61,232 bases of DNA from Candidatus Poseidoniales archaeon (lineage in GTDB: Archaea > Thermoplasmatota > Poseidoniia > Poseidoniales > Poseidoniaceae). Position 1 is the stretch's first letter. Each line of letters opens with the position of its first letter. Positions 16,001-32,936 of this stretch are shown piece after piece. Location: assembly GCA_003602605.1 (NCBI GenBank), contig QQRW01000023.1, positions 5,297-66,528 of the forward strand. The letters are read 5' to 3'. Below the pieces are notes generated by a model that was not told where the DNA came from, searched no databases, and saw only the letters and a program-made list of their open reading frames with translations. The position numbers and the translations under genes are program-made.

Positions 16001-16069
16001 TGGTTGATGCCCCTTAGCCCCCATAGGGGGCTGTGAAGTGGACAGTTGAAGGATAGGCTCAAAGGAGTG

Positions 16070-19000
16070 ATGCTCGTGCATAATACGGAAGTGAGTCATT
16101 TGCAACAGTCATTGTCATGGAAATCTCGACGAGTTTCTTTCTTTTTGGTTCTTGTTTTTTTGATTGCAGACCTTGGTGTCTTGGCGAACGATACGGAGCA
16201 AAATGTCCTTGAGGAGTTGTCTCCCGAATTCGCAGAGCCCATCCTTGTTGACGGATTGCCACCTTTGATGTGTGGCGAGGATATCTGCCTTCGACCGGTT
16301 CGAGACATTGATCGCAACGGTCGCATCTCTGCAGAAGCAGACCAGTGGTGGCAATCCTATGGTCCGGATTTGGACTGGAATGGAATGGATGACCGTCTTC
16401 AGAGGGTTCTCGCTGGTGCTGAATCCGTCTCTCCAACTGCTATCATCGGGCCAGATGGGCGAAAAACCGTTGCCATTGTCGTCGATTACGCATGGCGAGC
16501 AAACGACGCAGAAATCGAGACGTTACGCTCTGTTCTTGATGCGCATGGTTGGGTTGGCGAAGACGGCGGTGCATGGTTTCAACAACTCGAAGACATTGAT
16601 TCTGTTGCAGTCGATAAGGTGCCAGTGTCAGCACTTATGGACCTTTATTCACTCCACGGAGTTGTCGTTATTGAAATGCAAAACGTCATGATTCCATCCA
16701 ACGATGTTGCTGCCAAGGCTGCACGTGCACGACCATCAGATGTCTATTCAGCAACCGCCTACGAGCGCGATTATACCGGTGATGGTGTTGTTATCGCCGT
16801 TCTTGATACCGGTGTTGATAATGAGCACGAATCACTCAATGATTTTGACGATGAAAACGATGCACCCGATGAAGATCCCCTCTCGTATAACGACCACAAA
16901 TGGGTGGCAGGATACGATGCCACTTCCTCAGCTTCAAGCATCGATGGTACACAAGATCCTGATGATGGAAACGGCCACGGAACGCATGTTGCAGGTTCTG
17001 CCCTCGGCACCGGAGACAGCAGTCGAATTCACATGGGTACGGCTCCGGGTTCGTACCTTGTCGACATCAAGGTCCTAACCGATTCGGGAGGCACGAATTC
17101 GCAAGCTTCACTCAATGGAATACAATGGCTGATCAACAATCAAAATACGGACTGGGGCCACAATTCTTCGACTCGAGGCATCCAAGTCGCTTCGATGTCG
17201 TTCGGCTCCGCTTCAACTCCTTTGAATCCCGGTGACCAAGGAGACAATGGTAGCGGTTCAGAAGCCCGTCTTGTCAACGATGCAGTCAACGCATCCATCG
17301 TTTGTGTTATTGCTATGGGCAACGATGGTTCGAACCGTGTTCCTTCTCCAGCGAGTGCTGACAGAGCAATTTCCGTCGGTGCTGCTACCGACCGTGGCAC
17401 CATCAACCGCACCAACGACAATGTTGCAGATTATTCAAACACCGGTCCTCGGATTGACGACAACGATGACGATGAATGGGACGAACTCAAACCGGACATC
17501 ACATCTTTCGGTTCTGGCATCATGTCAGCAACTGCACAAACCGGCGCCTCGTTCCCTGGGCAACCTGCGAGGCCTTTGGCAGGCTCTGATTACGACGAAA
17601 AAGACGGGACCAGCATGGCAACTCCAATCGCTTCTGGAATTGTGGCGCTCATGCTTCAGGCAGACCGCTCGCTTGAACCACAGGAAATCAAAGACATTTT
17701 GCGTAATTCCTCAGAGGCGCGTGGCTCTGCATCAGAACCAAGCATTTCCGACAGGTGGAACGACGAATGGGGCTTCGGGCTTATCGACGCATCATGTGCA
17801 ATTGACACTGTTCTCAACAAGGCTTGTACGCCACTCGAAGGCGGAGGTGGCCTCATCGACCCGCCACCATCAGGAAATGGAACCAGTTTCGACGTGGACA
17901 TGTCGAAGCCTAACAACGGTACGTGGTGGATTGAAGGTGACTTTGCCCGCATTGCTGGAACAACCGATGAAAACCAAGACGGAGATGAATATACTAAGGT
18001 ACAGGTTCGTATCGAACAGTACCTTGAATCAGGAACCGTTCGCGAACTTCTAAATTGGGTTGATGCAGGCGGCGACGTATCCTCATGGTATCTCGATGTT
18101 TCAGTGAAAGACAGTTGGGTTCGGCAAGATGAAGATTATGCTTTAGTCATTGCACGGGCTATTAACGATGAAGGAGAAGAATCCGCACTCGATGCACGCT
18201 GGATTAACATCGCTCGAATGGCGGTTACCATTGCAGGACCGGCTGTCGGCACTGCACTTCAAGGGACCGTCGATTTCAGCGGCACTGTCGAAGGTGTGGA
18301 ACACGACGTATTGGAATACAAAATCGACAACGGTGATTGGCTGGTTGGTGAGCAACTCGATTCAATTGAATACGGTACACAGGACTGGTCCTTTTCATGG
18401 AATTCAAACTCTGTAGACGACGGTTCGCATCGCGTCAACTTCCGAATGGTCAATGAAAGCGGTGTAGTGACCGATGAAATACGTCGAACTTACACGGTTG
18501 ACAACCAGCCTGCAGCCCCCGATTTCCAGTTCCAAGGCAGCGTCGAAATCATGGACCAAGACCTTCCGGTTTACTCTGCAGTCGCCGGTACAGTACTTGA
18601 AGTCGATTTCAGTGTGATCAACGTTGGCGATCTTGATGCAAACGATGTCTTTGTCCAACTCAACGCAGTGGGTAGTCAATCCGAAACATACCCTCGAGAG
18701 ACTCGAATTTCCACGCTTGCAGAAGGTGAAAGCCAACAGGTCACCCTGTATTGGTGGGCCACACAGGCAGGCACTCAAGATGTTACGATCACCATCGACC
18801 CCAACAATCAGCAAGGAGACCCAAACCCTTCCAACAACGTCTACACCTTTTCGTTTGAAGTCGAAGAACGCCCTGTCGAGGCAATGCTGAGGTTCCTACC
18901 TGGTGCGGTAACAACCGATCCAAGAATCCCTCTCCCGAATACACCATTCAACATCGATGTACGAATCGACAACCTTGGTCAAACAGAAGCAACACAACTC

Positions 19001-21037
19001 AATGTCCGTTTGGAACGCTGGACATCGAGCGGTTGGGACCAAATTGCTACCGACGAGATATCGTTCATTGTCGGTTCAGAAACCGACTCTGGTAACGCCT
19101 ATGTCGAATTCTCTGAAGTGGGGCACTCGATTGGAAGTGTAAAGTATCGTGTCGTGCTTGAAGGCAACGGTGTCGAACCAGAGTTTAGCGACCATCGTTT
19201 TACGGTCGTCATTGACGATGCAAGTTTAGGTGCCTTGGTAGGTATCTCCCTCTCACAAGGCGAAGTGCCAATCGATTTCATTGGAATGGCCGATGGCGGA
19301 TTGCTGTTTACGACCCGGGATGGAGAACTTCATGTGCGCTCAATCACCGATAAAATGGTTCTACAAGCTGATGTTATGCTCGAAGAAAAATGGGGTGGTG
19401 AATTAGCCACAACGCTCCGTGAAGACGGCCTTGTCCACGCAGTTTGGAATCGAAAAACCATCAGCCCTGACGGCTATACTCTTACCGATTTGTCACTTAC
19501 ATCACTGACACGTCTTGCTGAAACGACTCCAATCGTTCATCTAATGCCTCCAATCAAACTCTCCGAGGGTTCGTACTGGGGGCTTGCACTCACTGAATAC
19601 GACGGAGATATGATCCTCGCAGGATATCACCGAGACATTTCCACGGGTGGCTCCTGGCAAGACATAACTTCGATTTTCACAATCGTATCCGCAAATCCCG
19701 ACAGCCCCTCGTCATGGAACGCCCCGAACATTGTTCTTTCCGATATTGATATTCGTCCGTCTCAAGGAGATAACTTAGCCATTGGCATGGGTGAGGAAAA
19801 TATGCACATTTTGTATCAAGAAATTCGAGACGATGTGACTGGACTGGACCGAGTCGGTTTGATGTACACTCACGGCGACCCAACTTTGTCATCTTGGGGA
19901 TTCCAATCCTCTGTGGGTGACGAAGCTCAAAATGCTCGGATGATTGTTCTTACCAACGGTAGCGATGATGTCTTGGTGGCTGCTTGGATTGAAGGACGTG
20001 GCAAGAGTGCGGCTGTAGCGCACGTGGTAACCGATAATTCATGGTCGGATGATGCTGAACGCATCAACGCTCCAGGTGTTCAAAACATCGAGTTAAGTCC
20101 GACTTCCGACGGTGTTCAAATTTACTATGATGAGATTAACATTTACGGGCCAGTGACGCGTTATGGCTTACTTTCCGACGCTTCGAACGGCCAATCGATG
20201 GCTCTTTCCAACATTCTAGCCGAAGGCTTCCTGGAAGACCAAGCGGGACTCGAGTTTGATGGCATCTTGCTGCTCTCAAGTGCCAGTGGTTCCCTGAAGA
20301 TGCGCACGGTTGCTGATATCAGTAACAACAACAACGATGAAGAAGAATCAACAGGTTTACTTGATACGATTCTTGCACCACTCCCAGGCTCTAAAGATAC
20401 GAAAATAATGATACTTGCGGGTACCTCGACACTCTTTTTCATCTTCCTTCTCGTCATTATCGTCTCTGTTCGCTCTTCTCGAAAGAAAGAGGAAAAATTA
20501 CTCGCTGTGATTGATTCAAGCGATGAGATGGATGCAGATTCACTCGAGTTGATGATTTCACCAGTTGGTGACCAAGGACCTCTGTTGGCTATTGACACCG
20601 AAACAGAAGACCTCGTCGTTGAAATGGCAACTCCGGAAGTGGAAGTTGAAGACGAAATCAGTTTATCGGACTCTCTTGAGGCAAAGAGCGATGCTGGAGA
20701 AGGGAACTCTCGCCTTGAACGCCGTATGAAGCGTAAGCAACAACGAGAAGTTTCAGAGATGGTACAAAACCTCACTCTGCCTCCACTGCCAGCCGCCTCA
20801 CTCCCACCTCCCGCTGAACAACCTGCGGTGATTGTAGCTGAACTCGATCCAGTTTTACCTCCTCTACCAGCATTGGACGGATCGCTCCCACCGCTGCCAG
20901 GCATTTTGCCGTTACCGATGATTGCACCTCCGCAACGAGATGCAACATGTGCAGAGTGTCAAGCCAAGTTTACGGTGAAAGACATGACCTTGTCTCGAGT
21001 CAAATGTCCGATATGCTCGGCAAATGTACAGTTGTGA
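16070..21037 (+). CDS. Membrane-anchored S8 (subtilisin-like) serine protease with Ig-like/CARDB domains, TM helix, Pro-rich linker and C-terminal zinc ribbon
   Basis: Signal-like N-terminus; catalytic triad VLDTG, HGTHVAG, GTSMATP; oxyanion AMGN; CARDB-type V.N.G...A....V..TIDP.N.....N..NN; TM ILAGTSTLFFIFLLVIIVSV; CAEC...CPIC at the end. Confidence 0.92.
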   Translation: MLVHNTEVSHLQQSLSWKSRRVSFFLVLVFLIADLGVLANDTEQNVLEELSPEFAEPILVDGLPPLMCGEDICLRPVRDIDRNGRISAEADQWWQSYGPDLDWNGMDDRLQRVLAGAESVSPTAIIGPDGRKTVAIVVDYAWRANDAEIETLRSVLDAHGWVGEDGGAWFQQLEDIDSVAVDKVPVSALMDLYSLHGVVVIEMQNVMIPSNDVAAKAARARPSDVYSATAYERDYTGDGVVIAVLDTGVDNEHESLNDFDDENDAPDEDPLSYNDHKWVAGYDATSSASSIDGTQDPDDGNGHGTHVAGSALGTGDSSRIHMGTAPGSYLVDIKVLTDSGGTNSQASLNGIQWLINNQNTDWGHNSSTRGIQVASMSFGSASTPLNPGDQGDNGSGSEARLVNDAVNASIVCVIAMGNDGSNRVPSPASADRAISVGAATDRGTINRTNDNVADYSNTGPRIDDNDDDEWDELKPDITSFGSGIMSATAQTGASFPGQPARPLAGSDYDEKDGTSMATPIASGIVALMLQADRSLEPQEIKDILRNSSEARGSASEPSISDRWNDEWGFGLIDASCAIDTVLNKACTPLEGGGGLIDPPPSGNGTSFDVDMSKPNNGTWWIEGDFARIAGTTDENQDGDEYTKVQVRIEQYLESGTVRELLNWVDAGGDVSSWYLDVSVKDSWVRQDEDYALVIARAINDEGEESALDARWINIARMAVTIAGPAVGTALQGTVDFSGTVEGVEHDVLEYKIDNGDWLVGEQLDSIEYGTQDWSFSWNSNSVDDGSHRVNFRMVNESGVVTDEIRRTYTVDNQPAAPDFQFQGSVEIMDQDLPVYSAVAGTVLEVDFSVINVGDLDANDVFVQLNAVGSQSETYPRETRISTLAEGESQQVTLYWWATQAGTQDVTITIDPNNQQGDPNPSNNVYTFSFEVEERPVEAMLRFLPGAVTTDPRIPLPNTPFNIDVRIDNLGQTEATQLNVRLERWTSSGWDQIATDEISFIVGSETDSGNAYVEFSEVGHSIGSVKYRVVLEGNGVEPEFSDHRFTVVIDDASLGALVGISLSQGEVPIDFIGMADGGLLFTTRDGELHVRSITDKMVLQADVMLEEKWGGELATTLREDGLVHAVWNRKTISPDGYTLTDLSLTSLTRLAETTPIVHLMPPIKLSEGSYWGLALTEYDGDMILAGYHRDISTGGSWQDITSIFTIVSANPDSPSSWNAPNIVLSDIDIRPSQGDNLAIGMGEENMHILYQEIRDDVTGLDRVGLMYTHGDPTLSSWGFQSSVGDEAQNARMIVLTNGSDDVLVAAWIEGRGKSAAVAHVVTDNSWSDDAERINAPGVQNIELSPTSDGVQIYYDEINIYGPVTRYGLLSDASNGQSMALSNILAEGFLEDQAGLEFDGILLLSSASGSLKMRTVADISNNNNDEEESTGLLDTILAPLPGSKDTKIMILAGTSTLFFIFLLVIIVSVRSSRKKEEKLLAVIDSSDEMDADSLELMISPVGDQGPLLAIDTETEDLVVEMATPEVEVEDEISLSDSLEAKSDAGEGNSRLERRMKRKQQREVSEMVQNLTLPPLPAASLPPPAEQPAVIVAELDPVLPPLPALDGSLPPLPGILPLPMIAPPQRDATCAECQAKFTVKDMTLSRVKCPICSANVQL

Positions 21038-23712: not shown

Positions 23713-24288
23713 GTGAACGTATGGCTTGCATCACAATCTGAACGACGTGCTTCGATGCTTCAATCGCTTTTCACATCCCTAGAATGCAAAGGGTTTGAGG
23801 GACTCGATGAAACGCCGCTACCGGGTACCGTCGACCAACAAGTTCTGTCAATCTGTCGTAAAAAAGCGGCAGCAGTCAAGGATGGGCATGGCTACGACAT
23901 GGTCGTGGTGAGTGACACTTTGCTTGCAGATCCCGATGACATGGAACATACTTTGGGCAAGCCAGGTGATTCAGTAGAAGCAGCAATGATGCTTCACCGC
24001 CTATCTGGGCGGCGCCACCAAGTTTGGACGGCAACGGGTATCCAATTCATGGGTAATTGGAGTTTTTTTGTAGAGCACTCTATTGTTGAATTGGAAGACC
24101 TTTCTGATGAGCGTTTGGTCGAACTTGTACTCAACGAATCATGGAAAGGTAAGGCAGGTGGCTATGATTTGGCGGGTCCGATGGGCTCCCACGCCTCGCT
24201 CATAGAGGGTGAAGAATCGACCGTCTTAGGCATCGCTGGTGAAGCGATGGAACTCCTCAGCTCTCTTTCAAAGAGTCATCTACTCTAA
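23713..24288 (+). CDS. maf: Maf family nucleoside triphosphate pyrophosphatase
   Basis: WLASQSERRASML, VVSDT, LGKP, LSGRRHQVWT, GKAGGY, VLGI. GTG start 23713 after GGGGAG. Confidence 0.9.
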   Translation: MNVWLASQSERRASMLQSLFTSLECKGFEGLDETPLPGTVDQQVLSICRKKAAAVKDGHGYDMVVVSDTLLADPDDMEHTLGKPGDSVEAAMMLHRLSGRRHQVWTATGIQFMGNWSFFVEHSIVELEDLSDERLVELVLNESWKGKAGGYDLAGPMGSHASLIEGEESTVLGIAGEAMELLSSLSKSHLL

Positions 24289-24884
24289 TCCGAGAGCAGT
24301 GTTTGCAAGCCGAGTTCATGGCGGCCGACATCGACGACGACATCTTTGCCTGGTAAAAGGAGTAATTTATCTTCAGCGTCAAGGGCGAACACTCCAATTC
24401 CCGCTTCATTGCCCATTTGTTGCAACTCTCTTCGGCATACGTTCTGATGTGTATCCATGTGCACCATCGGGCGGAGGTCAACGATTATCGAATCGCCCTG
24501 ATGGACTCTTTTCGCCATCTCTCGGGTTGGAATGCGGTTCATTGTGTCGGGTGCAACGTACCGCAAGGCGCGCCGAGGTATGGCGTTTCGCAGACGTGTA
24601 TGGGCGCCAAGGTCATGAAACGGTTCACCTTCTGCAGTGACGGGTCCCTTCCAATTTGGAGGAGGTGATTTCACGCTCACATTCACGGATGCAGTATCTT
24701 CGAGTTCGTGTTTCAGTGGAGTCTGTGAAGGTGCAGCAGGTTGTTTAGCAACGGTAAGTTGAGGTGTTTTCTGCAAAGATGCAGGCGTTGGTGTCGATCC
24801 AGCAGGTGTTTGACGAGCAGGCTTCTTTTCTGTAGATGAACCGTCTGGATTTGGTAATCCAAAGAACTGCCACAAACTTGCCAT
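24285..24884 (-). CDS. sepF: Cell division protein SepF with long low-complexity N-terminal linker
   Basis: N-terminal amphipathic MASLWQFFGL; C-terminal SepF core (...VHQGDSIIVDLRPM...ELQQMGNEAGIGVFAL..DKLLLLPG.DVVV). Confidence 0.75.
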   Translation of the reverse strand: MASLWQFFGLPNPDGSSTEKKPARQTPAGSTPTPASLQKTPQLTVAKQPAAPSQTPLKHELEDTASVNVSVKSPPPNWKGPVTAEGEPFHDLGAHTRLRNAIPRRALRYVAPDTMNRIPTREMAKRVHQGDSIIVDLRPMVHMDTHQNVCRRELQQMGNEAGIGVFALDAEDKLLLLPGKDVVVDVGRHELGLQTLLSD

Positions 24885-24896
24885 ATACTTTCACAC

Positions 24897-27800
24897 TCAC
24901 AGGTCGAGATCATCAAGGAATCCTGACATATCTGTGCTTGCAGAAGTGCTTGGGGTATTGGTAGTTGTCGGCTGTGCAGATGCAGGTTGGCCCATTTGTG
25001 CAGACAAATACTGTTCACCGTAATGCTGCCATTGTTCCATTGTCCAGCCTTGTGGCAAACCACTTGCAGGTAGCGGTGGACCAGCTTGTGGGGCGGGTGC
25101 AGCAACGGGTTCTACGGGTTGTTGAGCGACCGGTTCTGAAAGGGCAGACAGTGCAGCTAGAGCGTCGCTGGCTTGTTGCGTTGGGGCTGGATTGTATGCA
25201 GCATAAGGATCGGCAGCTGGTTGTGCTGCATACGGGTCGGCAACTGGTTGTGCTGCGTACATGTCTGTTTGTACAGGTGCTTCAGCAGTGTAACTGGGTT
25301 GTTGGGCCGCATAGTCTGGCTGTGATGCTAGGCCTGGGGGCTCCATCGTTGGGACGGCAGTAAACGCAGAATATTTGTCTTCAACTTCTTCTTGTTTTGA
25401 GCGGGTGATGAGCAAGAATGCCGCCAACACCACGACGATGAACGCAAGGATGCCTAGGATGGCAGTAGGCACAGAGCCAATCGCCTCACTCACGGATTCA
25501 ATAAATCCGTCCGCTGGTTGTTCAGTGACGGTGAGCGTAATGCTCGAAGATGAAGTTTCACCGTCGTCATCGGTGACCGTCAGCGTGAATGTCCACTGTC
25601 CTGGCTCAAGATTTGTTAGCGTATATTCCATGCCGCTGTAATCAATTTCACCGGTCATCTGGCCATCGAGATCACTGTCAATCAAATCACTGTCCCAGTC
25701 GTATTGAAGATTGAGTTTGTCGCTTGCAGTTTCACGAGATGTTACACCTGAAAGTGTAATGTTGTCGCCTTCCATAAGTTCAAACACGTTTGATGAATTG
25801 GTAATCGTGGCTGTTGGACCAAGGTTCTGAACGCTCACATTCACTGATGCCAGTGCTTTAGCGCCGTCATCATCTGTTACGGTTGCCGTGATTTGGCGTA
25901 CGCCTCGAGTAGCCCACGACATGGTCATTTCAGTGCCTTGAGCTTCACAATCGTTGATCATGTTGCCATCGCTGTCACTGTCAATCATCGAATCCGTGTC
26001 CCAGCAAACTTCCAATGAATCGAGGTCTGATGCGGTATCGCTTACCTCTACACTGAGTGTGAGGTTGTCGTCCTCAAAGATTGGAATACTCGAGCCAAGT
26101 CCTGAAATTGTTGGCGCGACGTTGTTCACTTTGACCAAAGCAGTACGCACATCTGACCTTGCTCCATCGTTGTCGTATGCTGATACCTGAATGGTGTGGA
26201 CGCCTGAAAGAGGCCACGATACGGTTGCTGCGGAAGATGGTCCCTTGGTGACTTCACTCCAATTTTCGATTAAATCGGATGGAATCCATTCAATGTTCAA
26301 ATCGTCACGGTCGGAGAGAGTATCGCTTCCAACGATTCGCAGTAGAGCGACTTCGTCTTCGTTGAGTTCCCACATCCCTGCGGAATCTGGTGTCATGTTC
26401 ATTCCGCCGAGGTAGAGTTCGGGGTAGGCCAGTGTTGGGGCGATATTGAGGACATCAAGCGTGCTGTTGACGGTTGTTGTCGCTCCGTCATCGTCGGTTG
26501 CAACTGCAGTAATGAGGACCGGTCCTTCACCCATTGGAGTGAAGGTACATGTTGGTTGAGTCAAACCCTCTTGGCAATTGAGATTGGGCCATGTGATACT
26601 GACTTGTTGTCCTGATGGAGAAACGCTGTCGCTGTCACCGCTATCGGTAGCATCAATTGTGATTTCGGATTCAACGTCGATGCTGTCGAGCATGCTGAGG
26701 TTGAGGAACGGTGCTCGGTTGAGCACGGTAACGTTCATTTCAAGAATGTCTTCATCGAGTTCTTCATCGAAAACAATGACTTTGACCATCCAATCACCGT
26801 CATCGCTCCAGTTCCAGTGGGTGATACAATCCGGTGCATCAATGACTTCAATGAGCCCTGGCTTCGATTCAAGCTCGAAGCGACAGTCGACATCTCCACC
26901 GTCTTCATCGAAACTTTCTGTAGCGTTCAGGATGATGCTTTCAAAGGTGTATTTGCCCTCATCGTAGGTGAACGATGCAGTTGGGGCGCGACCGATGAAA
27001 ATATCCACACTTGCATCATTGTTTGACCTATTCGCGTCCTCTGTGACCAGTTCATCTGGGTCAACAGTAAACGATAGAGATTGGTTTCCAATTGCTGCAT
27101 CTGCTGGGACAGTCCAATCCACAACTATACGTTGTTCACTGTATGAAGGGATGGCTGGTACGGATTGACGGGAACTGGTGCCGTCGGGCGTAACGACTTC
27201 AATTTCGGTCGGCGGTGAAGAGAGAACACCACGGTTTTGTGCAGGTATCGAGAACGAGAGGATATCGCCAGGGAGTGCTCCATATCCAATCGCTTTGTTG
27301 AGAGTAGTGACATCATTACCACGTGTGCGGGTCACGATGATTGAATCGGATTGTGCAACTAAATCGATGGCAACCACATTCAAATCTATGACGACGGTTG
27401 TTGCTCCGATAATATCGTTAACGGGATCCCAAACAATGATTCCGTTACTGGAGTAATCATCACTCGACGGTGTAGAATCCATGCCGTCCGAAACATTGAG
27501 CGTGTAATTGATGACTCCAGAGCCGTCGGTGGTTGGACTGGCTAACAAGTTCGTAGACTCGTATCGAATCTGCATGTTCGTATTTCCTTGCGGTGTGCCA
27601 CTGGGCGAAGTTGCATAGGTTGCTGTTACAACCTGTTCAGAGTCTGGAAGTGTTGCTAAAAATTGCAGGTCGACATCAACTTCAATATTTCGTGTACCCG
27701 GCGAAGAACCGGTTGCAATCCCATACGAATCAGCCGGTGAATAACTCTTCAACAGCCAGTCAATGGTAAATCCTGCAGCGTTACTAACACGCATCCAAGA

Positions 27801-28625
27801 GTTGTATCGAACTGCGGGGCAGTACCAGTTGTAACCTTGTGAAACACCGGTTTCGTTCCATTCATTGATTTTGAATGAATCATCGCATCCGGAGTAAATA
27901 ATCGAGCTGGTTCCGTCGGTTGGGACGCCATCAGCAGTGATTTGCCAGCTGTTGTTTTCTGGTCCCTCATTATCGAATTCAGTCGGGTCAAAGTAATCCG
28001 AACTTCCTGAGACTCCTGTGCCGCTGTAGAATGGCATGTACCATTGGTCGCCAGTGTGGAGTGGGAAGTCGTACTTCTCCTTTGGTGGTGAATAATAGGT
28101 GTCAAAGGTTATTTCACCTATATCTTGTTCGAGGAAGCCGAGATTGAAAGGTCTGAACCGTACATCAAGCGTGAATTCGGAGTTGACAACCGCAAGGTCA
28201 CGAACTCGCACAAGATCTTCTCCTTCATATCCGATGTTGAGCCTTCCAGTCACTCCTTCAAGGGTCGCACCGTTGTTCCCAGATGTAAAATCGCCATCGA
28301 GGACGAGTTTGTACACAAGTGTCTGCGTACCGTCGAGAGTGATAAAGAGGATATCTTCGACTATGTAGGTTGTGTCACCTGTGAGGGTGTTCAGTGATGC
28401 GGAAACATTGGCTTGAGCAATCAGTTGAGCGACATCAAACTTGGTCTCATAGACCCACTCATCGCCAATACGCCATGTAGGTACATCGATGTCCTTGTTC
28501 CATCCCTCAGCATGCTGAACATTTTGTTCAGAGAGCTCTTGAGTTTGGTATGTTACCATACTGGATAACGGTGCTGCAAACATCAAAAATATCAATCCAA
28601 AGACGACGGGGTCAAAGCGATTCAT
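24897..28625 (-). CDS. Large secreted, C-terminally TM-anchored PKD/CARDB-domain surface protein (paralog B)
   Basis: Signal peptide, N-terminal PTWRIGDEWVY domain, CARDB (VDPDELVTEDANRSNN), repeated VT.TDDDG PKD motifs, DSDSDG Ca-binding inserts, TM ILGILAFIVVVLAAFLLI, P/A/Q-rich tail. Start moved to ATG 28625. Confidence 0.85.
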   Translation of the reverse strand: MNRFDPVVFGLIFLMFAAPLSSMVTYQTQELSEQNVQHAEGWNKDIDVPTWRIGDEWVYETKFDVAQLIAQANVSASLNTLTGDTTYIVEDILFITLDGTQTLVYKLVLDGDFTSGNNGATLEGVTGRLNIGYEGEDLVRVRDLAVVNSEFTLDVRFRPFNLGFLEQDIGEITFDTYYSPPKEKYDFPLHTGDQWYMPFYSGTGVSGSSDYFDPTEFDNEGPENNSWQITADGVPTDGTSSIIYSGCDDSFKINEWNETGVSQGYNWYCPAVRYNSWMRVSNAAGFTIDWLLKSYSPADSYGIATGSSPGTRNIEVDVDLQFLATLPDSEQVVTATYATSPSGTPQGNTNMQIRYESTNLLASPTTDGSGVINYTLNVSDGMDSTPSSDDYSSNGIIVWDPVNDIIGATTVVIDLNVVAIDLVAQSDSIIVTRTRGNDVTTLNKAIGYGALPGDILSFSIPAQNRGVLSSPPTEIEVVTPDGTSSRQSVPAIPSYSEQRIVVDWTVPADAAIGNQSLSFTVDPDELVTEDANRSNNDASVDIFIGRAPTASFTYDEGKYTFESIILNATESFDEDGGDVDCRFELESKPGLIEVIDAPDCITHWNWSDDGDWMVKVIVFDEELDEDILEMNVTVLNRAPFLNLSMLDSIDVESEITIDATDSGDSDSVSPSGQQVSITWPNLNCQEGLTQPTCTFTPMGEGPVLITAVATDDDGATTTVNSTLDVLNIAPTLAYPELYLGGMNMTPDSAGMWELNEDEVALLRIVGSDTLSDRDDLNIEWIPSDLIENWSEVTKGPSSAATVSWPLSGVHTIQVSAYDNDGARSDVRTALVKVNNVAPTISGLGSSIPIFEDDNLTLSVEVSDTASDLDSLEVCWDTDSMIDSDSDGNMINDCEAQGTEMTMSWATRGVRQITATVTDDDGAKALASVNVSVQNLGPTATITNSSNVFELMEGDNITLSGVTSRETASDKLNLQYDWDSDLIDSDLDGQMTGEIDYSGMEYTLTNLEPGQWTFTLTVTDDDGETSSSSITLTVTEQPADGFIESVSEAIGSVPTAILGILAFIVVVLAAFLLITRSKQEEVEDKYSAFTAVPTMEPPGLASQPDYAAQQPSYTAEAPVQTDMYAAQPVADPYAAQPAADPYAAYNPAPTQQASDALAALSALSEPVAQQPVEPVAAPAPQAGPPLPASGLPQGWTMEQWQHYGEQYLSAQMGQPASAQPTTTNTPSTSASTDMSGFLDDLDL
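25207..25260 (-). repeat. Two-copy 27-nt coding tandem repeat (YAAQP[V/A]ADP), followed by a partial third YAA
   Basis: ggatcggcagctggttgtgctgcatac / gggtcggcaactggttgtgctgcgtac. Confidence 0.8.
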
Positions 28626-28684
28626 AGTACTCCGATAGCGTCCTCCTACTTGAGAGGCTTGATTCTTCGTCCCGTAGGGACGAT

Positions 28685-31600
28685 TCAAGGATGAGATGCT
28701 TGCGCATCGAGGTATTGTTGCCCGTAATGCGACCATTGTTCCGCAGTCCATCCTTCTGGTATCCCGTTTTCAGGAATCGGCGGGCCTTGTTCGATGAGTG
28801 GTACATTGTCCGGTAGTTCTACAGCAGGGAGTGATGGAATTGGGTCGCTGATTGGAACAATCTCTTCTCCAGTCGAAAACATTTGAGTTGATGGGGGAGT
28901 AGCTGGGCGTCGGGATTGTACTTGGTCGAGGAGAGCCTGAGTTTCAAACTCACGTTCGGCAGGGTCTTCACCAGCCATTTCCGCATTTTGCCATGGATCG
29001 TCCGACTCCTTCTTTTTCCGTCGACGCGTCAAGAGTGCCAAAATGAACAATGCTGAAACCAGTAATCCAAGTTGGGCAAGAGGATTCGCGTCTTCGCCGA
29101 TGAATGCCGCACTCACTTCTTCGATTGAGGTTCGATCGGGTGGTGCTACAACGATGGACATGGTTGATTGCCCCGGACGCTCCGGGTTTTCATCCCATGC
29201 CATGGCTTTCACACGGACAGTCCCTGAATCACGGAAGGTATGGGTCACTGAAGAGCCAATTAAATCTGCATCGTTGTCTTTAATGCCGTCTCCATTGCTG
29301 TCAACGGTGATGTCTAAATCCCAAACAATGGTAAGTCCAGCGAGGTCATTCAGCGAATCAATGGTGCGGTCTGCACTCAGGTAACATTCTCTGTAAGCAA
29401 CGCATTCTGTGTTTTGTAATCGAACAATTGGTGGCATATTCAACACCTCGACGACAAGCACTTCGCTGGATTGTGCTCCGTCATCGTCAGTAACGTGATA
29501 GATGATGGTGTGCGAACCGCTTCTGTTCCAAGCATAGGTGAGAACATCACCAGCGATGTCACAATCATCGTCAGCACCGCCGATGTCATCGCTGTCGATG
29601 CCTGGGTCGATGTCCCAACATTTGACAAGAGAGTCAATGTCGCTTGCAGTATCTGTAGAATTGCCTTCAATCGTCACCGATTGTCCTTCAGCAATCGGGA
29701 GCAAGGACACCAGCGGTTGAATGACCGGTGGGACATTACGGATGTTAATCCAACGTTCCTCAATTGAACTGGCCTCTCCATCGTTATCACGAACTTCCAA
29801 GCGGATTGTGTGAAGTCCAGCAGTGTTCCACTGCATGGGGAACGTCGAGGTTCGTCCGCTGAACGTATACATCAACGATGGCTGCTCACCATCCGGCCAC
29901 CATGTATGCGTCAAAGATTCCAAATCATCAACAGAATCGAGAGCTTGCCCTTTGACCACAATGGTTTCATCTTCATCTAAGTGCCAAATTTGCTGTTCAT
30001 CACTTTCGAGGAATTGGTTGTTTTTCTGCAATGCAATGGAGGTTCCGTGAGGCGCTATATTTGAGAATTGAATCTCAATAGTGGCTGGTGTTATTGCGTA
30101 GTCATCATCTGTGGCTATGGCTGTAAATGTGTGCAAGCCTTCGGTCGGAGCAGTCGTGGTACATACTCGAGTGTAATATCCTTCGTCGCAGAGGGTATCT
30201 GGCCAGTGGACATCGACGGCTCCGGGCCACACATCTTCCGAATCGGAATCGTTGGCAAAGGCGTAGAGAGTAATTGGGTGTTCTACTTTCACCTCGGTTC
30301 TTGAACTGAGGATTTGAATTTCTGGATTTCTGTTGGCGATGAGGACATTCATGATTGCAGTTTGTTCATCTTTTTCTTCATCAATGACCGTGATTTCAAC
30401 AGGATAATTGCCATCATCAGTCCATGTCCAATTGACCGTACAGGAGGTGGAAGGAACGGTTTCCCACGCCCAGATTCGAGAACCATCATCATAGGGGATT
30501 TTGAATTCGCAGGACACAATACCTCCATCCTCGTCAAAGCTTTCATTGGCGGACAGTTGCAGTTCTTCCAATGTCATTGCGATTGGTTCGGTGAACACTG
30601 GTGTTGGTAGTCGCCCAACAAACATGGAGATGAGTGCTTGATTGTTGGTTGAGTTCGCATCTGCACTGTTGATACCACTTGGGTCTGCTTGCCATGATAC
30701 CGGTACAATGCCAATTGCTTGCTCGCTCGGGACCGTCCAAGTAAAGTTCACTTTGTGAGCCTCATAGGTCGCCAGCGCAGGCAGTGGGTGAGATGAGGTC
30801 TGTCCGTCAGGATGTGTAATTGACATTGTTGTCGGGGTACTGGATGAAAGTCCTCTGTTTTGCACTGCCACTTCGATAAGCAGGTCATCGCCCGGCAATA
30901 TATTCCAACCGGAAAGGGAATTCAATTCAGTAAGAACTCCACTTCGATTTCTCAGAACTTTGCCAAAATCCTCGCTTGCAATCAAATCAAGTCCAATCAG
31001 GTATTCATCGAGTGTGATTGTGGTCGAGCCAACAGATGTTCCAAACGAGGAAGCAGCACTGGGCTGGATTCTTGCGACGATGCCGTGACTTGCCCAATCA
31101 AATGCCGACTCTGAAGCGTCTTTGTCATCACCCATATCTATCACAAAAAATGCACTACCGTTGCTTTCGGTAGTCGCTAATTGCACAAGACCAGTTGCTT
31201 CATGATGAACTTCAACCGGGATGCCGCTCGCAGTTGTAAAGCAGTTTGCGGATGCATTGACCCAAACGCCAATCGGTGTGTTGAGTGCGGTGATTTCGCT
31301 TTCCAATTCGACCATCAAGCATTCGTCCCGAGTTCCAGGATTGGTATACTGGTCAACTCCTGTCGAATCAAGCGGAATGTATTGCTTCAGACGGAAATCA
31401 ATGACAAGGCCAATATCGTCTTCAGTGTGCAACCAAGCAAAGTTTCTGGCCTCAGGGCAATACCAACGGTAACCACTTGCCTCGCCATTGCTGTTGATCG
31501 AAGTCAGTTCGTAGGAGGCGTTGCATCCTCCGTAGCCGATGGTTTGTCCATAGTCGTTACGCGGTTTTCCTGTGTTGGTGACTTCCCAAGTGGTGCTGTT

Positions 31601-32266
31601 GGTGTCGGTTGTCGGGACTGGAAACGGCGTAATGTAATCGCTTGAGCCGGACCAAGCAGTCGATGAAGTCGTGGTTGTAGTCCATTGTTCGTTCGCTCGA
31701 ATCGGGAAGTCATAGACTTCGTTTACCGGACTGTATGTACTGGTTATGGTGATGTCACCAAGTATTTGAGCGAGGCTTGAAAGGCCGTAAGGGACGAATC
31801 GGATGTACAATTCAAGATCACTGCGCATTGATGAAAGGTCGCTTACTCTGAGGTATTCAGTTTGCTTGAATGTAATGAACACGTTTCCGCTGTATCCGTC
31901 AAGTGAGACTCCAGACTTGTCAAAGTTTGCGGATGTCTGCAGAGTGTACGCTAGGACAGACATATTGTCGACTGAGCGTTCAGTAATGGCCATCACTTGC
32001 GCAGTTGTATCACCATAGATCTCTCCTACTGTGGCTTGTACACCAGAATCGGTGACAAGTTTGGTTGGATCAAAGGTTCCCGAGTATATCCATTTGTCAC
32101 CGACTTTCCATGTTGGTACATCACTCACTCCAGGGTTTTCAGATGAAAACTTTGGCGAATCTGCCTCTTCCAACAACGGTTGATTCAGCAGAGGTTGAGT
32201 TGTTGCTAAGCACAGCAAGGCCACGAGCATCAATGGAGATGCCAATCGGAGCGGACGCGTGCCCAT
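28685..32266 (-). CDS. Large secreted, C-terminally TM-anchored PKD/CARDB-domain surface protein (paralog A)
   Basis: Same architecture as the neighbour: PTWKVGDKWIY domain, CARDB, VTDDDG/DNDG motifs, DSNGDGIKDND insert, TM LGLLVSALFILALL+RRRKKK. Start moved to ATG 32266. Confidence 0.85.
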   Translation of the reverse strand: MGTRPLRLASPLMLVALLCLATTQPLLNQPLLEEADSPKFSSENPGVSDVPTWKVGDKWIYSGTFDPTKLVTDSGVQATVGEIYGDTTAQVMAITERSVDNMSVLAYTLQTSANFDKSGVSLDGYSGNVFITFKQTEYLRVSDLSSMRSDLELYIRFVPYGLSSLAQILGDITITSTYSPVNEVYDFPIRANEQWTTTTTSSTAWSGSSDYITPFPVPTTDTNSTTWEVTNTGKPRNDYGQTIGYGGCNASYELTSINSNGEASGYRWYCPEARNFAWLHTEDDIGLVIDFRLKQYIPLDSTGVDQYTNPGTRDECLMVELESEITALNTPIGVWVNASANCFTTASGIPVEVHHEATGLVQLATTESNGSAFFVIDMGDDKDASESAFDWASHGIVARIQPSAASSFGTSVGSTTITLDEYLIGLDLIASEDFGKVLRNRSGVLTELNSLSGWNILPGDDLLIEVAVQNRGLSSSTPTTMSITHPDGQTSSHPLPALATYEAHKVNFTWTVPSEQAIGIVPVSWQADPSGINSADANSTNNQALISMFVGRLPTPVFTEPIAMTLEELQLSANESFDEDGGIVSCEFKIPYDDGSRIWAWETVPSTSCTVNWTWTDDGNYPVEITVIDEEKDEQTAIMNVLIANRNPEIQILSSRTEVKVEHPITLYAFANDSDSEDVWPGAVDVHWPDTLCDEGYYTRVCTTTAPTEGLHTFTAIATDDDYAITPATIEIQFSNIAPHGTSIALQKNNQFLESDEQQIWHLDEDETIVVKGQALDSVDDLESLTHTWWPDGEQPSLMYTFSGRTSTFPMQWNTAGLHTIRLEVRDNDGEASSIEERWINIRNVPPVIQPLVSLLPIAEGQSVTIEGNSTDTASDIDSLVKCWDIDPGIDSDDIGGADDDCDIAGDVLTYAWNRSGSHTIIYHVTDDDGAQSSEVLVVEVLNMPPIVRLQNTECVAYRECYLSADRTIDSLNDLAGLTIVWDLDITVDSNGDGIKDNDADLIGSSVTHTFRDSGTVRVKAMAWDENPERPGQSTMSIVVAPPDRTSIEEVSAAFIGEDANPLAQLGLLVSALFILALLTRRRKKKESDDPWQNAEMAGEDPAEREFETQALLDQVQSRRPATPPSTQMFSTGEEIVPISDPIPSLPAVELPDNVPLIEQGPPIPENGIPEGWTAEQWSHYGQQYLDAQASHP

Positions 32267-32321
32267 GGTGGGCCACACTCGCAATAGGACATCAAGACTT
32301 CTCTCGAACTCTTTGACAAAC

Positions 32322-32936
32322 TCAGAGAAGGTCAGCCAATTCGTCCTTGATAATTTCGACGGCTTCGAGGATTTCGTCCTTGTGCCGTGCACCGGTAATA
32401 ACCATCTTACCACTGCCGAAAATCAAGCAGACTACCTTTGGATAGTCAAGTCGGTAAATCAAACCAGGGAATTGTTCTGGTTCGTACTCGACCTTATCGA
32501 AGGGCAAGTGGAAAGTAAGGTTGTTGAGGTTGAGTTTACGAGGAACGCCAGCGAGTGGTTCGTTGGTAAATTTGTCGTTTCCATCGTAGTCTTCAGGGTA
32601 GTGAAGTGCGTAGGTTGCAACCATGTTTTGAACCTCGATTTCGACTTGGTCCAAATCCCAAGTTTCAATTCCAGCATCACGAAGGTCAGCAATCATTCTC
32701 TCGATTCCAGTTTCAATATTTGCTTCGTCTTTACCACCGGTACAAACCGCACGGCCTGATCGGAACATGAGGATTGCAAGTTTTGGATCGGTGACTCGGT
32801 AAACAACACCTGGGAATTGTTCTGGTTCGTATTCACAGTTGAGCTGGATTGCAATATCCGGCAAATCGAGTTCTTCTGCGACACGGGTGCTCGCAACAAC
32901 ATTCACTACAGTTAGACGTTCTTCATCGGTTGTCAT
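32322..32936 (-). CDS. tbp: TATA-box-binding protein
   Basis: Two repeats NVVAS...YEPEQFPGVVYR...FRSGRAVCTG and NMVAT...YEPEQFPGLIYR...FGSGKMVITG. Start moved to ATG 32936. Confidence 0.97.
   Translation of the reverse strand: MTTDEERLTVVNVVASTRVAEELDLPDIAIQLNCEYEPEQFPGVVYRVTDPKLAILMFRSGRAVCTGGKDEANIETGIERMIADLRDAGIETWDLDQVEIEVQNMVATYALHYPEDYDGNDKFTNEPLAGVPRKLNLNNLTFHLPFDKVEYEPEQFPGLIYRLDYPKVVCLIFGSGKMVITGARHKDEILEAVEIIKDELADLL

What the first reader, a model, noticed from the sequence alone, without database searches (positions are those of the whole stretch)
25005..28786. Shared cytoplasmic C-terminal W-rich motif GPP(L/I)P..G(L/I)P.GWT.EQW.HYG.QYL on two surface proteins
Seen: GPPLPASGLPQGWTMEQWQHYGEQYL (25005-25082) and GPPIPENGIPEGWTAEQWSHYGQQYL (28709-28786). 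The motif is far better conserved than the divergent low-complexity tails around it, and both copies lie after the TM helix, so are cytoplasmic. The opening LPxGW resembles the start of a WW domain, and the tails contain Pro-rich and DPY/YAAQP repeats. I know of no assigned function. Inference: a lineage-specific mini-domain acting as a sorting, secretion or polar-localisation tag or as a scaffold-binding module for a whole class of envelope proteins.
Basis: partly seen in the sequence, partly recalled or inferred. Interest (0 to 1): 0.7.

Follow-up and report, generated by a model that had tools for sequence, protein, structure and literature searches.

The report
Shared cytoplasmic tail module, Poseidoniales
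Many unrelated cell-surface proteins of the abundant ocean archaea Poseidoniales (Marine Group II) end inside the cell in the same, nearly invariant, undescribed ~26-residue proline- and tryptophan-rich piece on a floppy tether, which most likely acts as a common docking handle for a still unknown partner.

Summary
Both peptides are at the stated coordinates, on the minus strand, at the C-terminal ends of two tandem paralogous PKD/CARDB surface proteins of 1284 and 1242 aa.

The motif is not confined to these two paralogues. This genome has 10 carriers, at least 8 with unrelated ectodomains. All share one layout: signal peptide, large ectodomain, one TM helix followed by Arg/Lys, a poorly conserved linker, then (G/A)PPLPxxGLPxGWTxEQWxxYGxxYL within 7-39 residues of the stop.

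The profile hit every Poseidoniales genome sampled (1-12 copies). It hit none of 45 genomes from sister orders and none of 155 other genomes of the phylum. Pfam, NCBIfam, PDB and the papers searched hold nothing like it.

Synonymous sites differ between paralogous copies, so the conservation reflects selection, not gene conversion. AlphaFold2 gives a confident Pro-rich segment followed by an aromatic-faced helix. It is not a WW domain and not a sorting signal.

My best reading (about 55%) is a tethered docking mini-domain for a shared cytoplasmic partner, which remains unidentified. The only genomic lead is an order-specific SepF-fold gene directly downstream of the carrier pair. That carrier also ends in a second peptide, LLDDLD[LF]. 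This peptide does not resemble the Poseidoniales FtsZ tails.

The parts
28685..32413 (-). Carrier 'B': a type-I membrane-anchored surface protein. The longest ORF is 1242 aa. The likely true start is the Met at 32266, just before the signal peptide MGTRPLRLASPLMLVALLCLATT.
   Evidence: ORF. PKD_4, PKD and CARDB domains. It is 33% identical to the downstream paralogue.
29027..29083 (-). Single C-terminal TM helix of carrier B (PLAQLGLLVSALFILALLT), followed by RRRKKK.
   Evidence: The orientation follows from the positive-inside rule (inference).
28787..29026 (-). Acidic and Pro-rich low-complexity cytoplasmic linker of carrier B (about 80 aa).
   Evidence: It is essentially unalignable with the paralogue's linker.
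28709..28786 (-). Tail module copy 2: GPPIPENGIPEGWTAEQWSHYGQQYL, 8 residues before the stop.
   Evidence: The profile scores it at 59.0 bits. In AF2, pLDDT is 77-88 across the module and residues AEQWSHYGQQYLDAQA form a helix.
24897..28751 (-). Carrier 'A': a type-I membrane-anchored surface protein. The longest ORF is 1284 aa. The likely true start is the Met at 28625, just before the signal peptide MNRFDPVVFGLIFLMFAAPLSS.
   Evidence: ORF. PKD, K319L-like PKD and CARDB domains.
25407..25463 (-). Single C-terminal TM helix of carrier A (AILGILAFIVVVLAAFLLI), followed by TRSKQ.
25083..25406 (-). Low-complexity cytoplasmic linker of carrier A, with DPYAAQP-type repeats.
   Evidence: Linker identity within orthogroups is 0.17-0.46, against 0.76-0.85 for the module.
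25005..25082 (-). Tail module copy 1: GPPLPASGLPQGWTMEQWQHYGEQYL.
   Evidence: The profile scores it at 60.9 bits.
24900..24920 (-). Second, terminal peptide FLDDLDL-COOH. It lies 35 residues after the module, behind a Pro/Thr/Ser-rich spacer.
   Evidence: [LF]LDDLD[LFI]-type ends are conserved in 21 of 95 carriers, all orthologues of carrier A, and in metagenome proteins.
24285..24884 (-). Gene for a SepF-fold protein, 13 nt downstream of carrier A on the same strand. It has an N-terminal amphipathic MASLWQFFGL, a roughly 100-aa disordered linker, a conserved WxGPxTxxGExFHDLG segment and a SepF-like core. It is a candidate associated gene only; the link to the module is inferred.
   Evidence: No Pfam or PDB sequence hit. 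The AF2 core has pLDDT above 90. The Foldseek top 12 are all SepF structures, TM 0.61-0.82 normalised to the target. It sits next to carrier A in 21/21 loci. It is single-copy in 79/80 Poseidoniales genomes and in 0/21 genomes of sister orders.

Best explanation
The motif is a self-contained C-terminal cytoplasmic module of about 26-30 residues, with consensus (G/A)PPLPxxGLPxGWT(M)EQWx(H/Y)YGxx(Y/W)L. Poseidoniales attach it to many otherwise unrelated type-I membrane-anchored surface proteins, including PKD/CARDB adhesin-like proteins, an S8 subtilase, cadherin-like, thrombospondin-repeat and beta-propeller proteins, and at least one minimal TM-only protein.

It sits at the end of a fast-evolving disordered tether of 24-136 residues on the cytoplasmic side of the single TM helix. 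It probably folds as a proline-rich (polyproline-II-like) arm laid against a short helix whose one face is W, Y, Y/W and L.

Most likely it works as a tethered docking handle. One conserved cytoplasmic partner or scaffold would recognise the same handle on all these proteins and so position, cluster, anchor or regulate the surface coat. The principle would be the same as the conserved C-terminal peptide of FtsZ, or the NWETF pentapeptide of chemoreceptors, each at the end of a flexible linker.

Shown: existence, layout, distribution, selection and absence from libraries. Inferred: cytoplasmic location, fold and docking function. Unknown: the partner.
For: - **Ten carriers in this genome**, always 7-39 residues from the stop. 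Only the two window proteins are full-length paralogues; the other ectodomains are unrelated by BLASTP and Pfam.
- **Uniform topology:** signal peptide, ectodomain, one TM helix, Arg/Lys cluster, linker, module. Across 95 carriers from 80 public loci, a TM helix was found upstream in 92, the median linker is 62 aa, and the module is 10 residues or fewer from the end in 74. The other 21 carry the extra LLDDLD[LF] end.
- **Order-wide and order-restricted:** 41/41 relatives, 76/76 Poseidoniales against 0/45 sister-order genomes, and 46/46 against 0/155 across the phylum. The library of 1.84 billion representatives holds 645 distinct 50%-identity clusters with the motif.
- **Strong purifying selection on the module only.** Identity within orthogroups is 0.76-0.85 for the module, 0.17-0.46 for the linker, 0.24-0.43 for the TM helix and 0.30-0.54 for the ectodomain. 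P-11, P-8, G-5, Y+8 and G+9, which were not part of the search pattern, are invariant in 95/95.
- **Not gene conversion.** The 10 paralogous copies share the same codon at only 36% of identical residues.
- **Confident fold prediction.** AF2 gives the module pLDDT 77-88, with a helix at AEQWSHYGQQYLDAQA and a confident non-regular Pro-rich arm.
- **A minimal carrier exists** (136 aa or fewer: TM helix, tail and module, with no ectodomain). The module therefore has a role that does not depend on any particular ectodomain.
- **Sequence character.** Near-invariance, an invariant Glu and Gly, and no basic residues fit a specific protein contact better than generic membrane binding (inference).
Against: - No partner has been identified.
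- No neighbouring gene family is shared between different carrier orthogroups.
- The SepF-fold gene is adjacent to only one orthogroup, and not in the streamlined Thalassarchaeaceae genera.
- I could not inspect the packing of the Pro-rich arm on the helix, and Foldseek finds no structural analogue.
- The organisms are uncultured, so nothing has been measured.
- The high conservation would also fit self-association or a biogenesis or turnover signal.
Confidence: 0.55

Rival explanations
1. Tail-tail association. The modules bind each other, or bind the other tail-end modules of this genome (for example the Trp-rich beta-type ends on other giants). This would cluster different surface proteins into patches or a sub-membrane mesh without a separate scaffold protein.
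For: - The module combines a PPLP-type proline arm with an aromatic helical face. This is the architecture of small self-associating folds such as the pancreatic-polypeptide fold (from memory; only the helix plus arm prediction comes).
- This genome has about 85 type-I proteins whose tails end in a few recurrent module classes.
- A degenerate tandem double copy exists in C32_38288.
Against: - No test of binding was possible.
- The Trp-rich ends give no WW or other Pfam hit.
- Strict invariance across paralogues is also what a single external partner would impose.
- Streamlined genomes keep only 1-3 carriers, which is few for building a mesh.
Confidence: 0.15
2. Biogenesis, turnover or signalling tag. 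A cytoplasmic factor would read the C-terminal module during or after membrane insertion. Candidates are a targeting or holding chaperone for very large Sec substrates, a quality-control protease acting on a degron, or a reader of tails released by intramembrane proteolysis.
For: - The position at the extreme C-terminus is typical of recognition tags.
- All carriers are very large secreted ectoproteins with a single anchor.
- An earlier first-reader note (e1-5236690; not verified here) places a rhomboid gene upstream of a TM-anchored subtilase in the window. That particular subtilase ends in a Zn ribbon, not this module.
Against: - The N-terminal signal peptides imply co-translational Sec targeting before the C-terminus is even made.
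- Known prokaryotic sorting tags abut or include the TM helix, whereas this module lies 24-136 residues away.
- Most type-I proteins of the genome lack it, so it is not a general insertion requirement.
- Degrons are usually short and far less conserved.
Confidence: 0.12
3. Membrane-interface element. The aromatic amphipathic helix folds back onto the cytoplasmic leaflet, for instance to sense or shape membrane curvature or to restrain the tail.
For: - Trp and Tyr favour membrane interfaces (general knowledge).
- The predicted helix has one aromatic face: W+5, Y+8, Y/W+12, L+13.
Against: - Membrane-targeting helices tolerate wide sequence variation and usually carry Lys or Arg. This module has none, has an invariant Glu and Gly, and has an invariant proline arm of no obvious use for lipid binding.
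- A tether of 24-136 residues is unnecessary just to reach the membrane that the protein is already in.
Confidence: 0.1
4. No function. The similarity would simply be inherited from a recent duplication, or homogenised by gene conversion among paralogues.
For: The two window proteins are tandem paralogues.
Against: - Eight further carriers have unrelated ectodomains.
- Synonymous sites are scrambled: only 36% of identical residues use the same codon.
- The module is present in every genome of an old order and is far better conserved than its flanks.
Confidence: 0.02

Closest known systems
Conserved C-terminal docking peptides on flexible linkers. Examples are the FtsZ C-terminal peptide, which binds SepF, FtsA and ZipA (M. 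smithii peptide NEDQLDDFIDGIF, PMC8178401), and the chemoreceptor NWETF pentapeptide, which tethers CheR and CheB.
   Same: - Position at or near the extreme C-terminus.
- A fast-evolving disordered tether before it.
- High conservation of the terminal piece only.
- The logic of one handle for one reader.
   Different: - Those peptides each belong to one protein family. This module is shared by many unrelated surface proteins.
- It is longer (about 26 aa) and probably folded.
- It has no sequence similarity to them.
- Its partner is unknown.
WW domain (Pfam PF00397)
   Same: The segment (P)LPxGW(T/E)M resembles the first strand of WW domains. Proline-rich PPLP stretches are typical WW ligands.
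   Different: - The two Trp are 5 residues apart, not about 20-22.
- There is no conserved Pro after the second Trp.
- The region is predicted helical, not a three-stranded sheet.
- There is no Pfam hit even at E up to 10.
- It is not a member.
Prokaryotic C-terminal sorting signals (PGF-CTERM/archaeosortase A, PEF-CTERM, PEP-CTERM/exosortase, LPXTG/sortase)
   Same: A short conserved C-terminal element shared by many otherwise unrelated surface proteins of one lineage.
   Different: - Those signals are a motif, then a TM helix, then a short basic end, and they are cleaved at the membrane.
- This module lies 24-136 residues beyond the TM helix on the cytoplasmic side.
- No NCBIfam sorting-signal model hits.
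Polyproline-helix plus alpha-helix mini-folds (pancreatic polypeptide/NPY 'PP-fold', Trp-cage)
   Same: A proline-rich arm (PPLP..LP), then a turn (G-W), then a short helix with an aromatic face. The local pattern T-x-E-Q-aromatic-x-x-Y recalls PP-fold hormones (from memory).
   Different: - There is no Pfam hit, including to Hormone_3.
- The helix is shorter.
- The context is intracellular and archaeal.
- At most this is a structural analogy.
Eukaryotic adhesion-receptor tails (integrin beta NPxY-talin, cadherin-catenin)
   Same: Single-pass surface adhesins with short cytoplasmic tails that carry a conserved adaptor-binding element.
   Different: - There is no homology.
- No adaptor or cytoskeleton link has been demonstrated.
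- This is an analogy of logic only.

Membership tests
WW domain (PF00397) | Match to the family profile | tested here: not met
   hmmscan of six tail ends against Pfam-A at E up to 10 gave no WW hit. The full-length proteins show only PKD, CARDB, S8 and similar domains.
WW domain (PF00397) | Two signature Trp about 20-22 residues apart, on a three-stranded antiparallel sheet | tested here: not met
   The Trp lie at positions 0 and +5 in 95/95 carriers. AF2 predicts a helix from +2 to +17 and no strands.
C-terminal sorting signals (PGF-CTERM, PEF-CTERM, PEP-CTERM, LPXTG) | A signature motif immediately before a C-terminal TM helix, with a short basic end | tested here: not met
   The module lies 24-136 residues (median 62) after the TM helix, at the very end of the protein.
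C-terminal sorting signals (PGF-CTERM, PEF-CTERM, PEP-CTERM, LPXTG) | Match to NCBIfam/TIGRFAM sorting-signal models | tested here: not met
   No NCBIfam family matched at E up to 10.
PP-fold (pancreatic polypeptide family, PF00159) | Profile match, and a polyproline-II arm packed on an amphipathic helix | tested here: inconclusive
   No Pfam hit. AF2 gives a confident Pro-rich non-regular arm plus a helix, but contacts could not be inspected and Foldseek found no PDB match.
SepF family (for the neighbouring gene 24285-24884) | SepF core fold | tested here: met
   The AF2 core has pLDDT above 90. The Foldseek top 12 hits are all SepF (3zie, 3zig, 3zih/3zii, 8hzt, 6scp, 7al1), with probability 1.00, TM 0.61-0.82 normalised to the target, and rmsd 2.1-3.7 A over about 82 residues.
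SepF family (for the neighbouring gene 24285-24884) | Match to Pfam PF04472 above its cut-off | tested here: not met
   This protein has no hit. A Thalassarchaeaceae paralogue that matches it weakly (E 3e-4) scores 24.1 bits on PF04472, below the cut-off of 27.
SepF family (for the neighbouring gene 24285-24884) | N-terminal amphipathic membrane-targeting helix followed by a flexible linker | tested here: inconclusive
   A conserved M(A/G)xLWxFFGLPDP N-terminus and a linker with pLDDT below 50 are visible. Membrane binding was not tested.
FtsZ-CTD-type SepF ligand (for the terminal LLDDLD[LF] peptide) | Resemblance to the organism's own FtsZ C-terminal peptides | tested here: not met
   Poseidoniales FtsZ-a ends ...QLRALRNxxIEFVN and FtsZ-b ends ...LGDAL...QRFD. 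The M. smithii FtsZ CTD NEDQLDDFIDGIF (PMC8178401) shares only LDD[FL].
FtsZ-CTD-type SepF ligand (for the terminal LLDDLD[LF] peptide) | Physical binding to SepF | not testable with these tools
   This needs ITC, SPR or co-crystallisation, or a multimer prediction. Only single-chain prediction was available.

The most novel reading that the evidence does not exclude
Poseidoniales may wire their whole coat of membrane-anchored enzymes and adhesins to the cell interior through a modular 'tail code', in a eukaryote-like way.

- The PPLP-GLPxGW-helix handle would be the universal adaptor site.
- Other tail ends would be further code words: Trp-rich beta modules, Zn ribbons and the acidic LLDDLD[LF] terminus.
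- The hub would be the divergent, order-specific SepF-fold protein encoded directly behind the conserved carrier pair, or a scaffold built with it.

Such a system would couple the surface coat to a membrane-bound polymer, and possibly to cell division. In a wall-less or lightly walled planktonic archaeon, that would be a prokaryotic counterpart of integrin or cadherin-adaptor coupling.
Probability: 0.15. Interest if true: 0.85.

Novelty: new variant of a known kind. Interest (0 to 1): 0.62.

Why it matters
Poseidoniales are among the most abundant archaea in surface oceans. They are uncultured, and their large surface proteins are thought to mediate particle attachment and the breakdown of proteins and polymers.

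A strictly conserved cytoplasmic handle, shared by roughly 3-12 unrelated surface proteins in nearly every genome sampled (one had a single copy), implies an unknown intracellular system. That system would organise, anchor or regulate the cell surface. I know of no such system described for prokaryotes, where shared C-terminal elements on surface proteins are sorting signals rather than cytoplasmic modules.

Practical consequences:
- The module is a ready-made bait for finding that system, by peptide pull-down or an in-silico multimer screen.
- It is a clean marker for annotating Poseidoniales surface proteins. It merits a new Pfam or NCBIfam model, since 645 distinct 50%-identity clusters already exist.
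- It is a possible entry point to how these cells divide, given its link to an unusual SepF-fold gene.

Tried and rejected
1. **Family libraries.** Pfam and NCBIfam scans of the tail ends at E up to 10 found nothing. Pfam also found nothing for the other tail-end classes.
2. **Structural analogue.** Foldseek of the 45-aa model against PDB returned 0 matches, so no analogue could be named.
3. **Viral carriers.** The 5 IMG/VR matches are internal chance similarities in large proteins of 720-876 aa, not C-terminal modules.
4. **Shared neighbour genes as partner candidates.** Clustering 653 ORFs from 80 loci found no family that neighbours more than one carrier orthogroup.
5. **Small soluble carriers.**
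   - The 108-aa frame in G009 is the frameshifted end of a 939-aa ORF.
   - The short hits in the representative library match what contig-end fragments would look like. I read only those whose motif lies far from the C-end, and these end in LLDDLD[LIF] or appear frameshifted.
   - Only one real minimal carrier was found (G019), and it is still membrane-anchored.
6. **Other architectures.** A word-index homologue search with the tail of the 377-aa carrier returned only its orthologues.
7. **The 'FtsZ-tail mimic' idea for LLDDLD[LF].** The Poseidoniales FtsZ-a and FtsZ-b tails look different, so I do not adopt it.
8. **Homology with the helical 'GW' tail ends.** These are tail ends such as FPQWTQDEIQGYFDQGW... 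in C32_16884 and C21_128810. hhalign gives probability 18%, so homology is not established.
9. **Canonical SepF in this genome.** PF04472 gives no hit above its cut-off.
10. **Gene conversion or recent duplication.** Rejected on codon usage.
11. **Contigs titled Verrucomicrobiales (L051) and Yoonia (L095).** L051 has the same B-A-SepF-Maf-GlmS synteny as Poseidoniales. I read both as mis-binned contigs, not as spread of the module outside the order.

Full report
**Observation**

The two peptides exist exactly where stated, but on the minus strand.
- Window 25005-25082(-) reads GPPLPASGLPQGWTMEQWQHYGEQYL and 28709-28786(-) reads GPPIPENGIPEGWTAEQWSHYGQQYL. The plus strand is meaningless.
- They belong to two adjacent same-strand ORFs, 24897-28751 (1284 aa) and 28685-32413 (1242 aa). 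Both are PKD/CARDB proteins.
- The two proteins are tandem paralogues, 33% identical over about 1190 residues. Their tails barely align except at the motif, which is 17/25 identical.
- Each protein has a signal-peptide-like N-terminus and a single hydrophobic helix near the C-terminus, at 25407-25463 and 29027-29083. Basic residues follow the helix, then a low-complexity linker, then the motif.
- The cytoplasmic location follows from this topology. It is an inference.

**Not just two paralogues**

- A six-frame scan and a profile search of the whole 2.02-Mb assembly found 10 ORFs carrying the motif, at 44-61 bits. The next best ORF has E 0.07.
- In every carrier the motif lies 7-39 residues from the stop, behind one TM helix and a linker.
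- The carriers are 377-1848 aa. They include an S8 subtilase and CARDB/NPCBM-type, cadherin-like, thrombospondin-repeat and beta-propeller-like proteins, plus three with no Pfam domain.
- Apart from the window pair and a shared repeat between two others, their ectodomains have no BLASTP similarity.
- An eleventh protein (C32_38288) carries a degenerate tandem double version.
- The truncated giant protein at 54980- is complete on the contig at 2129 aa. It ends in a different Trp-rich sequence, not this motif.

**Distribution**

| Sample | Genomes with the motif |
|---|---|
| Nearest relatives | 41 of 41 |
| Class sample, genomes of the order | 76 of 76 |
| Class sample, sister-order genomes | 0 of 45 |
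| Phylum sample, genomes of the order | 46 of 46 |
| Phylum sample, other genomes | 0 of 155 |

- Copy number is 5-12 in the window's family and 1-8 in the other large family.
- Record titles of 80 loci fetched from public genomes name Candidatus Poseidoniales (Poseidoniaceae and Thalassarchaeaceae) or generic euryarchaeote MAGs. Two contigs with bacterial titles look mis-binned.
- In those loci I found 95 carriers. A TM helix lies upstream in 92, the linker is 24-136 residues (median 62), and the module is within 10 residues of the end in 74.
- The library of 1.84 billion representatives holds 645 clusters with the motif at E up to 1e-3.
- Viral contigs hold none.
- The DNA stretch is present near-identically in marine metagenomes from at least six studies. 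Metatranscriptome contigs from relatives cover the motif-coding piece and the neighbouring gene. This is weak evidence of expression.

**Conservation and selection**

- Anchored on the first Trp, the consensus is G-P-P-L-P-x-x-G-L-P-x-G-W-T-M-E-Q-W-x-(H/Y)-Y-G-x-Q-(Y/W)-L.
- The positions that were not part of the search pattern (P-11, P-8, G-5, Y+8, G+9) are invariant in 95/95 carriers.
- Mean pairwise identity within three orthogroups:

| Region | Identity |
|---|---|
| Module | 0.76-0.85 |
| Ectodomain | 0.30-0.54 |
| TM helix | 0.24-0.43 |
| Linker | 0.17-0.46 |

- This comparison is partly biased, because the loci were selected with a pattern.
- The ten paralogous copies of this genome are 63% identical in protein and 63% in DNA. 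They use the same codon at only 36% of identical residues. The similarity is therefore maintained by selection on the peptide, not by recent duplication or gene conversion.

**Structure**

- AlphaFold2 on a 48-row alignment of tail ends gives mean pLDDT 77. Values are 77-88 across the module and 56 for the preceding linker. There is a helix at AEQWSHYGQQYLDAQA, and the Pro-rich part is confident but non-regular.
- On a helical wheel, W+5, Y+8, Y/W+12 and L+13 share one face (my calculation from the consensus).
- A confident proline arm, an invariant G-W turn and an invariant Gly in mid-helix suggest a compact arm-on-helix mini-fold, like PP-fold or Trp-cage peptides. I could not inspect contacts, and Foldseek found no PDB match, so this stays an inference.

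**What it is not**

- It matches no Pfam or NCBIfam family at E up to 10.
- It is not a WW domain. The Trp spacing is 5 and the region is predicted helical.
- It is not a PGF-CTERM-type sorting signal, because it lies far beyond the TM helix on the cytoplasmic side.
- No paper in the library contains the peptide strings or describes such tails in Marine Group II.

**Search for a partner**

- Clustering all neighbouring ORFs of the 80 loci found no family shared by different carrier orthogroups.
- There is one strong link. The window's pair (B then A) is followed, 13 nt downstream, by a 199-aa gene (24285-24884) in 21 of 21 loci.
- That protein has no Pfam or PDB sequence match. Its AF2 core (pLDDT above 90) matches SepF structures in the top 12 Foldseek ranks, with TM 0.61-0.82.
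- It has a conserved amphipathic N-terminus and a long disordered linker.
- It is single-copy in 79 of 80 Poseidoniales genomes and absent from 21 of 21 sister-order genomes. No canonical SepF is detectable in this genome.
- Adjacency to a carrier holds in Poseidoniaceae and three Thalassarchaeaceae genera, but not in four streamlined genera.
- Carrier A alone carries a second terminal peptide, [LF]LDDLD[LFI]-COOH, about 30-60 residues after the module.
- I tested whether that peptide mimics an FtsZ tail. The Poseidoniales FtsZ-a (…QLRALRNxxIEFVN) and FtsZ-b (…QRFD) tails do not resemble it. The M. smithii SepF-binding peptide NEDQLDDFIDGIF (PMC8178401) shares only LDD[FL]. The SepF link is therefore a lead for carrier A, not an explanation for the module on all carriers.

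**Mechanism**

The anatomy is an invariant, probably folded end-piece on a variable flexible leash, attached to many unrelated membrane proteins and kept by selection in every member of an old order. A minimal TM-plus-tail carrier also exists.
- This anatomy best fits a tethered docking handle read by one conserved cytoplasmic partner (about 55%).
- The alternatives are tail-tail association (about 15%), a biogenesis, turnover or signalling tag (about 12%) and a membrane-interface helix (about 10%).
- A non-functional relic is excluded.
- Binding, fold, topology and partner all remain to be shown.

**Verdict**

The finding is real, order-wide and undescribed in the libraries and papers searched. 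The WW analogy and the guess about the giant protein do not.

Earlier notes of this scan from other genomes reached the same general reading. I arrived at mine before reading them, and I treat them as leads only. New here are:
- the codon-level test against gene conversion;
- the Foldseek confirmation of the SepF fold;
- the phyletic match of that gene with the module;
- the loss of adjacency in streamlined genera;
- the negative result on FtsZ-tail mimicry.

Noticed in passing
window 24285-24884 (-): An unannotatable 199-aa gene, 13 nt downstream of carrier A, is a divergent SepF-fold protein. It has no Pfam or PDB sequence hit, but the Foldseek top 12 are all SepF. It has an amphipathic N-terminus, a roughly 100-aa disordered linker and an extra conserved WxGPxTxxGExFHDLG segment. 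It is single-copy and order-specific, and no canonical SepF (PF04472) is detectable in this genome.
   Followed up: yes
window 24900-24920 (-): A second conserved terminal peptide, [LF]LDDLD[LFI]-COOH, follows the module on carrier A and its orthologues only (21 of 95 carriers). It does not resemble the Poseidoniales FtsZ-a or FtsZ-b tails.
   Followed up: yes
whole genome; in the window: 54980-61232+ (+) and 16046-21037 (+): About 85 type-I anchored proteins in this genome have cytoplasmic tails whose ends fall into recurrent classes besides the module:
- Trp-rich beta-hairpin-like ends. One example is the window's giant protein, which is complete on the contig at 2129 aa and ends ...YWWYHDKEANEWWYKNAEGEIVQHK. 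Others are C21_3184 and C37_33615.
- Helical 'QGW/QGY' ends (C32_16884, C21_128810, C38_2382).
- Zn-ribbon ends. One example is the window's S8 subtilase, which ends CAECQAKF...CPICSANVQL. Others are C10_10919, C10_3002 and C40_7031.
- Acidic-hydrophobic termini.

None of the sampled Trp-rich or helical ends hits Pfam; the Zn-ribbon and acidic ends were not scanned separately. hhalign does not link the helical class to the module.
   Followed up: partly
L097 2513-2923 (-) (genome G019, same genus): A minimal carrier of 136 aa or fewer. It consists of an N-terminal TM helix with almost no ectodomain, a linker and the module.
   Followed up: partly
L012 (own genome C37:22086-23219, +): The smallest carrier of this genome (377 aa) has the sequence QCGGACHGD near its N-terminus. 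This looks like a CX3CH variant of a heme-c binding site. The window also holds a Ccm heme-handling cassette, according to another note of this scan. I did not test this.
   Followed up: no
L108-L143 (FtsZ loci of relatives); own genome C35:29928-31109: Poseidoniales have two FtsZ paralogues with conserved but non-canonical C-terminal tails: FtsZ-a ends ...QLRALRNxxIEFVN and FtsZ-b ends ...LGDAL...QRFD. Neither has the archaeal 'GID' motif described in PMC8178401. FtsZ-b is missing from this 86%-complete assembly. A third, short FtsZ-like gene lies at C38:19524-20441.
   Followed up: partly
L051 (NZEQ01000049.1, titled Verrucomicrobiales) and L095 (CAXRJJ010000014.1, titled Yoonia): Two contigs filed under bacterial MAGs carry the module. 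L051 has the full Poseidoniales B-A-SepF-Maf-GlmS synteny. Both are probably mis-binned archaeal contigs.
   Followed up: partly
window 61000-61232 and beyond (own genome C16, tail of the giant protein): A run of N (read as X) interrupts the cytoplasmic tail of the giant protein, so about 20 residues of that tail are unknown.
   Followed up: no
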